Below, piece after piece: positions 6,254 to 45,626 of a stretch of 64,000 bases of DNA. Each line of letters starts with the position of its first letter. Positions within the stretch are counted from its first letter, which is position 1. The notes below the pieces were generated by a model. It worked only from the letters and a program-made list of their open reading frames with translations, did not search any database and had not been told where the DNA came from. Source of the stretch: the human T2T-CHM13v2.0 reference genome, Homo sapiens; NCBI RefSeq assembly GCF_009914755.1, contig NC_060927.1; one strand, given 5' to 3'. A program made the position numbers and the translations under genes.

Positions 6254-6572
6254 CTTCTTTTTCTTTCTTTTTTTTTTTTTGAGATGAGTCTCACTCTGTT
6301 GCCCAGACTGGAGCCCAGTGGCATGATCTCAGCTCACTGCAACCTCTGCCTCCCCGGTTCAAGCAATTCTCCTGCCTCAACCTCCTGAGTAACTGGGATT
6401 ACAGGTGCCCGCTACCATACCTGACTAATTTTTTTTTTGTTTGTGTATTTTTAGTGGAGATGGGGTTTCACCATATTGGCCAGGCTGGTCTTGAACTCCT
6501 GACCTCAAATGAGCCGCCCACCTCGGCCTCTCAAGGTGCTGGGATTACAGGAGTGAGTCACCGTGTCCAGCC
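6254..6572 (-). mobile_element. AluS
   Basis: Reverse dimer; TSD ttttcatcag(a/g)ttctt. Confidence 0.92.
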
Positions 6573-7059
6573 ATTTTCATCAGGTTCTTAAAGGAGTCCC
6601 CTAATTTCTCACTGTAGCTTAAGGTAGGGGCATACCTTAAAGTTCTTAGAGAGTTGAGAAGTTATTGTGGTTGAAAGAGTTTAAGAGAAACATATCTTAT
6701 GTAATTCCATATACAAATAAAAATGTTACCTCTCTTTGTGTGTATAAATCCTGTAGGAATACAGGTTTTAGCTGTGCTCCAGTGTGTTTCTTTGCTTAGA
6801 GCTGCTTCAAGGCAGGTTTCAGTAAGCAAATGAAGCCATGTGCTCCACATTTTGGTCAATATTGATTAGTTGAATGGAACTTTGCTGCAGTTATTTTATT
6901 GAAACTAAGCAATGTGATTGGAGATGCCTTGACTTGAGAGAAACGCGTTTCAGAATTCGCAGTCTGAACGCACGTCATCCCGGGGCCCTCATTTTCTAAA
7001 GATTGTCCAGGTTTATCGATAGACTCTAACTGTGCCCCTCTCTTTCAATTGTCCCATAG

Positions 7060-7356
7060 ATTCCCTATAAGGAGCCCCTGCTGGTGCACCAGAACTACCG
7101 GGGGCCATCTGCCCAACTGCCCCAGACTCTGGCAGTGGGGCCCCCGATGGCAGTGGGCACCTCCCCGTGAAACCTGCCAAGCTGGACGCCACAGCTCTGC
7201 ACGACGACACTTTGGCCAACTCCGTGCCCCCTTCGGAGGCATGCAACCATGCAGTCCTAGCCTGCAGCCTGGGCATCCCTGAGGAACACTACATAAGCGA
7301 GGCTGTGGAAGATGCTCCCAGCTACAGAGGGTACCGGGATGCCTGCACCATTACTG
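7060..7356 (+). other. TRAK1: Upstream alternative TRAK1 exon (297 nt; nominally 5'UTR, but frame open into exon 2)
   Basis: Branch point CTAAC 7026-7030, pyrimidine tract, acceptor ccatAG|A at 7058-7059, donor CTG|GTATGG at 7356/7357; phase-1 end matches the exon 2 acceptor; translation ends RDACTIT, continuing as DVCNSTDLPEVE. Confidence 0.75.
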
Positions 7357-8399
7357 GTATGGGGGCCCTTTCCCTGCCAGGGAGGAAGGGAGGGAGGTTT
7401 CAGTCACTGAGGACTAGGGAAGGAATGCAGCCACATGGGAGGGTCTTGGGGAGGTATGTGGAGAGGAACCACCAAAGTGCAAAAGACTCTGAGCTTTCGG
7501 ATTGTGAGACCTCCAATCCAGAACCTGTTCTGCCAGTGAACCATTTTGTAACTTGTGTCAGTTGTTGACCTGCTATCCTGACTGAGAGGTAGACAGCATT
7601 TCACTAAATTGTCATGAAGGTTAAAGATGGTAACATCCAAACCTGAGCAGCAAGCATGGCCCATCACAGGCACTCAGTGTATTGAACCCTTCCTTCTCTC
7701 TTTGCACTCAGCTTCTTCAGATATAAGACAGGTGTAGTGGGAATAACATGCACTGTCATTGTGGGATGCAAAAACAGAAAACTACATGGAGTGCCCTTTG
7801 TACACCATCAGGATTTGCACAGACATGGATTTTTACAGATACCTGTGTCAGTCATAACTCTCAGTGTCCCAGGTGGTAATCACCTAACATCTGTGCGGGC
7901 ACTTAGTAGTAGAGCTATTGCTTTTTTATTTTCCCCAAGGAAGCATTGAGACAAGTGCTTGAAGCTAGCACAAGAGAGGGCTCTCAATGGAAATGGTGTA
8001 GGATGGTGTGCATAACAGCAGCAAGTGGCAAAATTATAGCTCAATCCAGTTGCATTCATATAGAAGTTTGCTTAATTTCTCATTTTTGTCTGCAGTGTTT
8101 GCTTTTGTTTGTCTGTTTGAAGTAATGCCTGATGACAGCTTAATATATGCAAGTTGGCTTCCAGTAGCTTCTCTTGGTTCTGTGTTACCAGTTAAGCCTT
8201 GAGGACCTCCTGTGTGTCAGGGGTTTCCTGGATACAGAAAGGCACAGAGAAAGCCGGGGGTCCCAGCCTGGTGCCTAGCTGCTGTGCTAGGCCCCCACAC
8301 ACCTCCTCTCCCTTTTTGTTAAGTGGCCCACATGTGTTGTCCTCCGCTTGTGACTGAGTCCCTCTCCCACTTGCCTGCCCCCTGAAGGACACAGTTCCA

Positions 8400-11428: not shown

Positions 11429-11519
11429 ATGGCATTGGTTTTTCAATTCGGGCAGCCCGTCAGGGCTCAGCCTCTGCCAGGACTCTGCCACGGCAAGCTC
11501 ATTCGGACAAACGCCTGTG
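11429..11519 (+). CDS. TRAK1: TRAK1 first coding exon (aa 1-30, MALVFQFGQPVRAQPLPGLCHGKLIRTNAC)
   Basis: Recognised TRAK1 N-terminus; ATG at 11429; consensus donor G|GTAAGT at 11519/11520; 91 nt, phase 1. Confidence 0.95.
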
Positions 11520-45431: not shown

Positions 45432-45626
45432 ATGTGTGCAACAGCACCGATCTTCCGGAAGTCGAGATCATTAGCCTGCTGGAGGAGCAGCTGCCCCATT
45501 ATAAGTTAAGAGCCGACACCATCTACGGTTATGACCACGACGACTGGCTCCATACACCTCTCATTTCTCCAGATGCCAACATTGACCTCACAACCGAGCA
45601 AATTGAAGAGACGTTAAAATACTTCC
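45432..45626 (+). CDS. TRAK1: TRAK1 coding exon 2 (start of HAP1_N region; DVCNSTDLPEVEIISLLEEQLPHYKLRADTIYGYDHDDWLHTPLISPDANIDLTTEQIEETLKYF)
   Basis: Pyrimidine tract + tttAG|AT acceptor, C|GTAAGT donor, 195 nt phase 1-1, in frame with exon 1; CpG-retaining coding-like sequence. Confidence 0.96.

What the first reader, a model, noticed from the sequence alone, without database searches (positions are those of the whole stretch)
7060..7356. Hidden coding-like alternative N-terminal exon of TRAK1 with a TRAK2-like junction motif
Seen: a textbook internal exon (CTAAC branch point, pyrimidine tract, AG at 7058-59, CTG|GTATGG donor), 297 nt (multiple of 3), phase 1 at the donor. Its frame is stop-free for 95 codons from 7071 (GAPAGAPELPG...EDAPSYRGYRDACTIT) and joins exon 2 as ...YRDACTIT|DVCNSTDLPEVE. 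From recalled knowledge, the paralog TRAK2 reads ...HRDSESIT-DVCSNEDLPEVE at the same junction, whereas the canonical TRAK1 exon (…IRTNAC) shows no such similarity. Yet the exon has no in-frame AUG and a TAA at 7068-7070, so it would be annotated as 5'UTR. Inference: this is the ancestral TRAK N-terminal exon and is either translated non-canonically or decaying, which would mean an overlooked TRAK1 proteoform with an acidic N-terminus in place of the basic canonical one.
Basis: partly seen in the sequence, partly recalled or inferred. Interest (0 to 1): 0.8.

Follow-up and report, generated by a model that had tools for sequence, protein, structure and literature searches.

The report
Ancestral TRAK1 N-terminal exon lacking AUG
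This alternative 5' exon of human TRAK1 is the human copy of the coding exon that starts the protein in sharks, fish and birds; it has lost its start codon but keeps an intact, slowly evolving reading frame, so it may still encode an unrecognised form of this mitochondrial transport adaptor.

Summary
Exon 7060-7356 has a CTAAC branch point, AG acceptor and CTG|gtatgg donor. After TAA 7068-70, 95 codons are open, and base 7356 joins exon 2 as ...YRDACTIT|DVCNSTDLPEVE.

The open frame alone is not significant (4.6% of simulated exons). The homology is decisive. All 49 database hits are TRAK1 proteins, and 44 read this frame directly into exon 2. These gene models start with Met in birds, alligator, coelacanth, sturgeon and gar. 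TRAK2 ends its first coding exon ...HRDSESIT at the same phase-1 junction. The "ancestral exon" reading is therefore supported.

In human there is no in-frame ATG, and all three frames are closed to upstream exons. Yet the human core is 75-77% identical to alligator and pigeon, among the highest of ten mammals, and has no human-unique residue in 81 codons. That argues against long decay.

Whether it is translated in human, for example from CUG 7182 in strong context, was not testable here. I give about 0.45 for a non-AUG proteoform and 0.40 for a recently disabled 5'UTR exon. No paper found describes this.

The parts
7026..7059 (+). 3' splice region: CTAAC branch point (7026-7030), pyrimidine tract, AG acceptor (7058-59)
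   Evidence: Read directly.
7060..7356 (+). 297-nt alternative 5' exon of TRAK1. It is the human orthologue of the ancestral vertebrate TRAK1 N-terminal coding exon.
   Evidence: It is an exon in the hub's RefSeq table. Homology. It is the only copy in the human genome.
7068..7070 (+). In-frame TAA that closes the conserved frame to anything spliced in from upstream. It aligns with Tyr in the cat model and Met in the vole model.
7071..7355 (+). 95-codon open frame without ATG. It encodes an acidic segment (pI 4.45, charge about -9).
7113..7355 (+). Conserved core (PTAPDSGSGAPDGSGHLPVKPAKLDATALHD...HAVLAC...EEHYISEAVED...YRDACTIT) with the motifs PAKLD, EEHYVSE and RDAxTIT.
   Evidence: Alignments. 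Pigeon homology spans 7098-7355.
7182..7184 (+). In-frame CUG in strong context (gccaagCUGg). It is the best candidate non-AUG start, 26 nt from the alternative exon start at 7156. Other in-frame near-cognates are AUC 7107, GUG 7167, UUG 7212, CUG 7269 and GUG 7305.
   Evidence: Use as a start codon is inferred, not shown.
7147..7170 (+). Out-of-frame uORF MAVGTSP*. Further out-of-frame AUGs lie at 7241 (13 codons, stop at 7280-82), 7249 (MQS*), and 7312 and 7339 (these run into exon 2 and stop at 45507-09).
7156..7356 (+). Shorter annotated form of the exon. It has no AG before it, so it is probably an alternative transcription start inside the conserved frame.
   Evidence: Hub table; (TG at 7154-55). 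The transcription-start reading is an inference.
7357..7362 (+). Donor site gtatgg. The exon ends in phase 1.
45432..45626 (+). Exon 2 (DVCNSTDLPEVEIISLLEEQLPHYK...), shared by the canonical and the alternative first coding exons.
   Evidence: The Pfam HAP1_N domain starts 18 residues after the junction.
11429..11519 (+). Canonical first coding part, MALVFQFGQPVRAQPLPGLCHGKLIRTNAC (basic, pI 9.69), ending in the same phase. It is the competing N-terminus.
   Evidence: hub table.

Best explanation
Shown: exon 7060-7356 is the human orthologue of the first coding exon region of TRAK1 as it exists in cartilaginous and bony fish, coelacanth, crocodilians and birds. In those gene models a Met lies upstream in the same frame, and the exon ends ...RDA(C/G)TIT in phase 1 before DVCNST. 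In human the exon is still spliced in phase to exon 2, but it has no AUG. It is closed by TAA 7068 in the conserved frame, by TGA 7168 in the second frame and by TGA 7280 in the third. Only initiation inside the exon could therefore produce the ancestral N-terminus.

Inferred: because the human frame is intact and evolves as slowly as in any mammal examined, the exon is most likely still translated, at low level or in particular tissues, from a near-cognate codon. The best candidate is CUG 7182 (gccaagCUGg). In transcripts that begin at 7156 it is the first well-placed start a scanning ribosome meets. GUG 7167 and AUC 7107 are alternatives.

The product would be a TRAK1 proteoform in which the basic 30-residue canonical N-terminus is replaced by an acidic, disordered segment of about 58-83 residues. 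That segment would carry the conserved short motifs EEHYVSE and RDAxTIT; PAKLD is kept intact only from an AUC 7107 start, since GUG 7167 replaces the residue just before KPAKLD and CUG 7182 lies inside the motif. It sits directly ahead of the HAP1_N motor-binding region.
For: Homology:
- All 49 hits are TRAK1, and 44 of 49 join this frame directly to DVCNST.
- Met-initiated models exist in pigeon, hummingbird, ostrich, alligator, Latimeria, Acipenser, Lepisosteus and XP_007895091.
- Pigeon residues 40-126 match window 7098-7355 at 70% identity, E 1.7e-29.

Junction:
- TRAK2 has the same phase-1 intron, and BLASTP starts at YRDACTIT/HRDSESIT.
- In a 30-sequence family alignment the T before the junction is invariant, and D, T and I are 90% or more conserved.

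Constraint in mammals and in the human line:
- The human core matches alligator at 55/73 and pigeon at 56/73. This is on a par with cat and camel, the best of the 10 mammals compared; armadillo and vole are at 58-64%.
- Human matches cat 65/72 and mouse 58/72, with no indel.
- There are 0 human-unique residues in 81 codons. Of 10 human-Saimiri differences, 0 are clearly human-derived, 4 are Saimiri-derived and 6 are ambiguous.
- The positions conserved in mammals are the same motifs conserved in fish.

Splicing: short assembled contigs (1.4-4.3 kb) encode the exon joined to exon 2 and the rest of TRAK1 (P0010, P0021, P0042-44, P0047, P0194, P0324).

Start candidates and their contexts.
Against: - There is no in-frame AUG. 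A stop lies three codons into the exon.
- Five out-of-frame AUGs sit inside the exon.
- Exon 1 carries a strong 37-codon uORF (gccAUGg).
- None of the 49 hits is named as a human, ape or Old World monkey protein; 12 carry no species name. The one primate model (Saimiri) changes frame near 7110.
- TRAK1 is absent from the one supplementary file held for a survey of peptide-supported 5'UTR translation (PMC11317171).
- The only TRAK1 row in Fedorova et al. 2022 is in the 'UntranslSET' sheet, for a transcript I could not identify.
- No paper holds both TRAK1 and 'non-AUG'.
- A loss of the AUG within primates would leave the frame looking just as intact.
- Synonymous versus non-synonymous change could not be measured, because no DNA of other vertebrates was available.
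- The neutral rates behind my rough estimate (omega about 0.15-0.45) are recalled, not computed.
- Most of the compared proteins are automatic gene models.
Confidence: 0.45

Rival explanations
1. Recently disabled coding exon that now acts only as a 5'UTR. The ancestral AUG was lost and TAA 7068 arose on the primate or human line. The exon is still spliced, but transcripts carrying it either give an N-terminally truncated TRAK1 from the next in-frame AUG in a later exon or are held down by the uORFs. On this view the frame looks intact only because too little time has passed.
For: - No AUG, and stops in all three frames from upstream.
- Five out-of-frame AUGs in the exon, and an exon-1 uORF.
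- The cat and vole models still have an in-frame Met at or next to the position of the human TAA, so the human state can be derived.
- Saimiri shows 4 unambiguous lineage-specific changes and a frame switch, which suggests relaxed constraint in at least one primate line.
- No hit named as a human or ape protein contains the exon.
- No literature or peptide support was found.
Against: - The human core is among the best conserved of the mammals against sauropsids, and has no unique residue in 81 codons. By my recalled neutral rate, roughly 7-8 amino-acid changes would be expected on the human branch since the split from New World monkeys.
- The mouse conceptual translation (P0008, deposited as a partial protein) also shows no Met although its frame is open over all 129 residues before the junction. 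AUG-less states are therefore not confined to human, yet the frame is kept across rodents, carnivores, camel and armadillo.
Confidence: 0.4
2. Annotation gap. In human an unannotated upstream AUG-bearing exon or alternative acceptor downstream of TAA 7068 feeds the conserved frame, so the proteoform would be ordinary and AUG-initiated.
For: - Birds and sturgeon have a further upstream coding segment (MVKFWRGKGG..., MAGILGH...).
- Mammalian models use varied upstream Met codons (cat, armadillo, Fukomys, camel).
- The hub table lists 33 transcripts, and I could see the coding parts of only one.
Against: - Searching the human genome with the pigeon N-terminus found nothing for residues 1-39, only 7098-7355.
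- The annotated alternative start 7156 lacks an AG.
- Exon 1 has no AUG whose frame reaches the conserved frame.
Confidence: 0.1
3. The conservation reflects a DNA- or RNA-level function (an enhancer or promoter for the start at 7156, or a structured RNA) and not coding.
For: An annotated exon start lies inside the exon (hub table). The exon is GC-rich (62%) with 10 CpGs.
Against: - No Rfam family reaches its threshold in 6500-7900.
- The fold of 7182-7262 is no better than shuffles, z = -0.69.
- The conservation pattern follows protein motifs that are coding in fish and birds, and the only indel in the mammalian core is one whole codon (Fukomys).
Confidence: 0.05

Closest known systems
N-terminal coding exon of non-mammalian TRAK1 gene models (for example Latimeria isoform X3, Columba isoform X2, Alligator sinensis isoform X2, Acipenser ruthenus)
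   Same: Same gene and same position before exon 2. Same phase-1 junction ...RDA(C/G)TIT|DVCNST. Same motifs PVKPAKLDATAL, HAVLAC and EEHYVSEA. 70-77% identity to the human translation.
   Different: Those models begin with Met in the same frame. In coelacanth and XP_007895091 that Met lies 11 residues before 'EPG', which by ungapped counting maps to the 5' edge of the human exon. Human has no AUG, and has TAA at 7068.
First coding exon of the paralogue TRAK2 (MSQSQNAIFTSPTGEENLMNSNHRDSESIT)
   Same: Same intron position and phase. Shared R-D-x-x-x-I-T before DVC.
   Different: Only 30 residues, AUG-initiated, and lacks the PAKLD and EEHYVSE motifs. No similarity was detected upstream of the last 8 residues.
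Non-AUG-initiated N-terminal proteoforms of human genes (the class catalogued by Fedorova et al. 2022, PMC9789052)
   Same: A conserved in-frame region upstream of the first AUG, with near-cognate codons as the only possible starts.
   Different: Here the region is a separate, alternatively spliced exon that replaces the canonical N-terminus instead of extending it. That pipeline's step 3 drops extensions overlapping coding exons (passages read), so it probably did not score this exon. No footprint or peptide evidence is known to me.
N-terminal splice variants of Drosophila milton (recalled; Glater et al. 2006, PMC2063864, seen only in the search listing)
   Same: Alternative 5' exons give the TRAK/Milton adaptor different N-termini ahead of the kinesin-binding coiled coil. 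As I recall, these differ in kinesin binding.
   Different: The fly variants are AUG-initiated and I did not examine their sequences. Homology to this exon was not tested.

Membership tests
Ancestral vertebrate TRAK1 N-terminal coding exon | Lies in the TRAK1 gene upstream of the DVCNST exon and joins it in phase 1 | tested here: met
   and the hub table. G7356 + AT 45432-33 = Asp.
Ancestral vertebrate TRAK1 N-terminal coding exon | Translation homologous to the N-terminus of TRAK1 proteins of other vertebrates | tested here: met
   49 of 49 hits are TRAK1, with E down to 1.5e-43. Birds are 62-71% identical and alligator 75%. Coelacanth, sturgeon and gar.
Ancestral vertebrate TRAK1 N-terminal coding exon | An AUG in frame at or upstream of the exon | tested here: not met
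   There is no ATG in the frame, and TAA 7068 lies three codons in. The exon-1 frames end at TAA 7068, TGA 7168 or TGA 7280.
TRAK/Milton family junction motif | (D)-x-x-T-(I/L)-T immediately before (D/E)(V/L)C | tested here: met
   T is invariant, and D, T and I are 90% or more conserved in 30 sequences. The motif is present in 28 of 83 unnamed representatives that have at least 8 residues upstream; many of the other 55 look like unspliced models. TRAK2: 112 of 120.
Non-AUG-initiated N-terminal proteoform | In-frame AUG-less region conserved at protein level | tested here: inconclusive
   Protein identity and the relative-rate comparison favour constraint. No codon-level test was possible without orthologous DNA.
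Non-AUG-initiated N-terminal proteoform | Near-cognate start in favourable context, conserved across species | tested here: inconclusive
   CUG 7182 has A at -3 and G at +4. The encoded Leu of KLD is conserved, but its codon in other species is unknown.
Non-AUG-initiated N-terminal proteoform | Ribosome footprints or peptides in the frame | not testable with these tools
   No Ribo-seq or mass-spectrometry data were available. TRAK1 is absent from the supplement of PMC11317171.
Decayed (pseudo-)exon | Accelerated change, frameshifts or internal stops relative to functional orthologues | tested here: not met
   There are no stops or frameshifts in 95 codons. Human is among the closest of the mammals to sauropsids and has 0 unique residues in 81 codons.
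Pfam HAP1_N (PF04849) | Match to the domain profile | tested here: not met
   The exon translation matches no Pfam family. In P0320 and P0009 HAP1_N starts 18 residues after the junction.

The most novel reading that the evidence does not exclude
Human, and probably most placental mammals, still make a TRAK1 proteoform that carries the N-terminus shared with cartilaginous fish, without any AUG. Initiation would be at a near-cognate codon such as CUG 7182, on transcripts from the internal start at 7156. Its acidic disordered head, with the motifs PAKLD, EEHYVSE and RDAxTIT, would tune motor or partner binding differently from the basic mammalian MALVFQ... head that the TRAK1 constructs I recall from the literature carry.
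Probability: 0.35. Interest if true: 0.7.

Novelty: new member of a known kind. Interest (0 to 1): 0.5.

Why it matters
TRAK1 links mitochondria to kinesin-1 and dynein. As I recall, TRAK1 variants cause severe encephalopathy.

The residues just after this junction lie in the N-terminal part reported to matter for kinesin-1 binding (residues 23-138, as quoted in PMC12916290, passages read).

If the ancestral N-terminus is still made in human cells, three things follow:
- Work that uses only the MALVFQ... form would miss a proteoform.
- Variants in 7071-7355 would be coding, not UTR.
- The gene would be a clear case of a protein start exon that survived the loss of its AUG.

If it is not made, the locus is a dated example of start-exon turnover: a new mammalian first coding exon replacing an old one.

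Tried and rejected
- **ORF length as evidence.** Rejected. 4.6% of simulated exons are as open, and the opposite strand has 97 open codons.
- **Pfam on the three long frames over the exon.** No family.
- **Rfam on 6500-7900.** Only two sub-threshold hits, both outside the exon.
- **Hairpin after CUG 7182.** z = -0.69, no support.
- **Structure.** An AlphaFold2 model of P0194 built with 30 aligned sequences predicts almost all of residues 15-145 (the exon-encoded part and most of exon 2) at pLDDT below 50. No fold was available to compare, so no fold search was run.
- **Human counterpart of the bird upstream coding segment.** Not found. Its weak likeness to the mammalian MSLRD... exon (E about 1e-4 in a two-sequence search) was not pursued.
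- **TRAK2 orthology of the PAKLD-bearing representatives.** P0239, P0257, P0284 and P0297 are closer to TRAK1 (50-57%) than to mammalian TRAK2 (39-49%). They do not show that the long exon predates the TRAK1/TRAK2 split.
- **Retrocopies or paralogous copies of the exon in the human genome.** None.
- **Literature.** Six searches found no description of this exon or of non-AUG TRAK1.
  - PMC12916290 deals with a different short isoform (passages).
  - The TRAK1 rows in the supplement of PMC11974929 are gene/number lists.
  - The Fedorova et al. row concerns ENST00000613405, whose structure I could not establish.
- Paper reading closed. As a result the supplement of PMC3483550 and the text of PMC3208247 were not read. 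PMC3208247 reports alternative TRAK1 start sites in colorectal cancer and mentions uORFs (listing only), so it may bear on the 7156 start. The search of earlier findings was not open.
- **No orthologous DNA.** dN/dS, PhyloCSF, and the codons at 7056-58, 7068-70, 7167 and 7182 in other species could not be examined.

Full report
**1. The observation**

- CTAAC at 7026-7030, a pyrimidine-rich stretch, and AG at 7058-59.
- A 297-nt exon, 7060-7356.
- The donor ACTG|gtatgg.

In the frame with codons at 7071+3n the exon reads DSL*GAPAGAPELPG...EDAPSYRGYRDACTIT. TAA lies at 7068-70, followed by 95 open codons and no ATG. The last base, G7356, plus AT at 45432-33 gives Asp, so the junction reads ...TIT|DVCNSTDLPEVE. 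The canonical first coding exon (MALVFQFGQPVRAQPLPGLCHGKLIRTNAC) ends in the same phase.

The other two frames stop at 7168-70 and 7280-82.

The open frame alone is weak evidence. 921 of 20000 composition-matched simulated exons are as open in that frame, and a minus-strand frame has 97 open codons.

The shorter annotated exon start at 7156 follows TG, not AG. I read it as a transcription start. This is an inference.

**2. What the exon is**

A search with the 95-residue translation found 49 proteins, all TRAK1.
- 44 of the 49 read RDA(C/Y)TIT directly into DVCNST.
- The other five run into intron-like sequence or carry an insert (P0002, P0003, P0039, P0040, P0045).
- The hits include about 30 bird clusters (62-71% identity), Alligator sinensis (75%), and mammalian models from cat (86%, full coverage), vole, beaver, squirrel monkey, camel, Fukomys, mouse and armadillo.
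- They also include unnamed proteins from short assembled contigs (1.4-4.3 kb) that hold the exon joined to the rest of TRAK1. Because the contigs are far shorter than the intron, these must be spliced transcripts.

A second named search, with the sturgeon N-terminus, added Latimeria, Lepisosteus and two records labelled XP_007895091/082.

These non-mammalian models begin with Met in the same frame. They share PVK(P/S/A)AKLDATAL, a central AC, EE(H/Y)YVSEA and (Y/C/H)RDA(C/G)TIT.

In Latimeria and XP_007895091 the Met lies 11 residues before 'EPG'. Counted without gaps, that falls at the 5' edge of the human exon. This is an inference.

The pigeon N-terminus matches the human genome only at window 7098-7355 (70% identity, E 1.7e-29). 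Nothing was found for pigeon residues 1-39. The exon has no second copy in the human genome.

**3. The TRAK2-like junction**

- Human TRAK2 exon 2 begins ag|AT GTC TGC, which is the same intron position and phase.
- 112 of 120 listed TRAK2 proteins read ...(R/K)(D/N)S(E/D/Q)SIT|DVC.
- BLASTP of the cat TRAK1 model against orang-utan TRAK2 starts exactly at YRDACTIT/HRDSESIT.
- A PDB search aligned the same stretch to residues 21-30 of a solved TRAK2 chain, 9dgv.
- In a 30-sequence family alignment the Thr before the junction is invariant, and D, T and I are 90% or more conserved.
- Among the 150 unnamed representatives listed for exon 2 (357 hits at E <= 0.001), 83 have at least 8 residues upstream of the junction. 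28 of those end (S/T)(I/L/V)T. Many of the other 55 look like unspliced models.
- Only one listed representative (P0174) carries the canonical MALVFQ... head.

The donor consensus may contribute to the invariance of the last Thr codon. This is an inference.

**4. The human state**

Exon 1 of the gene is L009:301-775, with the donor cgg|gtaagc. It has a 37-codon uORF with gccAUGg.

Its three frames enter the exon and stop at TAA 7068, TGA 7168 and TGA 7280.

Inside the exon there are five out-of-frame AUGs, at 7147, 7241, 7249, 7312 and 7339. The last two run into exon 2 and stop at 45507-09.

In-frame near-cognate codons are:
- AUC 7107
- GUG 7167
- AAG 7179
- CUG 7182 (gccaagCUGg, with A at -3 and G at +4)
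- later ones, including UUG 7212.

In the alignment, human TAA lines up with Tyr in the cat model and Met in the vole model. The cat Met lines up with human ATA 7056-58. Without their DNA this stays an indication only.

**5. Constraint**

Over the 72-residue core (7140-7355), one search gives these identities:

| Comparison | Identity |
|---|---|
| Human vs alligator | 55/73 |
| Human vs pigeon | 56/73 |
| Cat and camel vs five sauropsids | 71-77% |
| Rodents vs five sauropsids | 63-69% |
| Armadillo vs five sauropsids | 56-62% |
| Human vs cat | 65/72 |
| Human vs camel | 65/72 |
| Human vs Saimiri | 62/72 |
| Human vs mouse | 58/72 |
| Human vs armadillo | 49/72 |

The only indel in the mammalian core is one codon, in Fukomys.

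Over 81 codons (7113-7355) no human residue is unique. Of the 10 human-Saimiri differences, 4 are Saimiri-derived, none is clearly human-derived and 6 are ambiguous.

With neutral divergences that I recall and did not compute, these identities correspond to omega of roughly 0.15-0.45. Several more human-branch changes would be expected under neutrality.

Upstream of about 7110 the frame is not kept. The mouse and Saimiri models change frame there.

Two caveats apply. Species with broken frames would not appear among predicted proteins, and most of the sequences are automatic models.

**6. What the peptide would be**

- The segment is acidic (pI 4.45, charge about -9), against pI 9.69 for the canonical head.
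- It matches no Pfam family, and HAP1_N begins 18 residues after the junction.
- An AlphaFold2 model of a 402-residue relative predicts almost all of residues 15-145 as disordered, at pLDDT below 50.
- The conserved pieces therefore look like short linear motifs. Their partners are unknown.

**7. Explanations**

I favour the following, at 0.45. The exon is the ancestral coding exon. It lacks an AUG in human but is still read, most plausibly from CUG 7182 on transcripts that start at 7156. On those transcripts that codon precedes every AUG.

The rivals are:
- A recently disabled exon that now serves only as a uORF-laden 5'UTR (0.40).
- An unannotated AUG-bearing upstream exon or acceptor (0.10).
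- A DNA- or RNA-level function (0.05). Rfam and folding gave nothing.

**8. Literature**

Six searches found no description of this exon or of non-AUG TRAK1.
- In Fedorova et al. 2022 (PMC9789052; passages and supplementary sheets read), TRAK1 appears once. It is in the 'UntranslSET' sheet, for ENST00000613405, with zero coverage of its theoretical extension.
- I could not establish that transcript's structure. The pipeline's step 3 drops extensions that overlap coding exons, so this exon was probably not assessed.
- TRAK1 is absent from the one held supplement of PMC11317171.
- Paper reading closed. PMC3208247, on alternative TRAK1 start sites in colorectal cancer, was therefore seen only as a listing.
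- I could not see the coding annotation of the other 32 RefSeq transcripts. The frame may already be annotated somewhere.

**9. Verdict**

- The "ancestral exon" interpretation is well supported.
- The "hidden proteoform" remains open but plausible.
- Interest is moderate, at 0.5.
- If true, it would be a new member of the known class of non-AUG N-terminal proteoforms, with the unusual feature that a whole ancestral start exon outlived its AUG.

Noticed in passing
window 6455-6623: This annotated alternative exon is an antisense Alu (ggagatggggtttcaccatattggccaggctggtc...). A sub-threshold SRP/Alu-type Rfam hit lies at 6500-6571 on the minus strand. It is an exonised repeat, not conserved coding sequence.
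   Followed up: partly
L009:316-429 (G000:C3:42031616-42031729), TRAK1 exon 1: A 37-codon uORF (MARGRAAAPATVPAS...) with strong context gccAUGg sits in the GC-rich first exon. The rest of exon 1 is open in two frames without any AUG.
   Followed up: partly
P0009/P0013 residues 1-45 versus P0006 (camel) MSLRDVGGEEECFEYDCQDEE...: The bird upstream coding segment (MVKFWRGKGGPGKEECFADDQEQRE...) weakly resembles the mammalian alternative first exon MSLRD...EECFEYDCQDEE. The match is 50% over 16 residues, E about 1e-4 in a two-sequence search. It could be an old exon duplication or chance.
   Followed up: partly
P0045/P0046 (unnamed; their exon residues match the camel model P0006): These translations run from exon 1 through the second frame of the exon (IPCKEPLLVCQTS...GPPMA) and then jump into the conserved frame at ACNHAVLAC. 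This suggests an internal splice or deletion in that species.
   Followed up: no
P0039, P0040 (Cygnus TRAK1 isoform X1): A 12-residue insert (GKLHQSLLLFPA) sits between ...DACTIT and DVCNST. It would fit an alternative donor or a micro-exon at this junction in swans.
   Followed up: no
P0239, P0257, P0273, P0284, P0297 (unnamed representatives): A second group of TRAK1-like proteins is 50-57% identical to TRAK1 and 39-49% to mammalian TRAK2. P0239, P0257, P0284 and P0297 carry a PAKLD-like motif and ...(D)(A/V)(S/A)T(I/L/V)T before (D/E)(V/L)C. This may be a further vertebrate paralogue that retains the long ancestral head.
   Followed up: partly
window 6808-6937 (+): A sub-threshold match to snoR127 (25.1 bits against a gathering score of 37, E 0.041) lies just upstream of the exon. 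It is probably chance.
   Followed up: no
PMC3208247 (search listing only): A 2011 exon-array study names TRAK1 among nine genes with tumour-specific alternative transcription start sites in colorectal cancer, and mentions uORFs. It may concern the starts near this exon. It could not be read because paper reading had closed.
   Followed up: no
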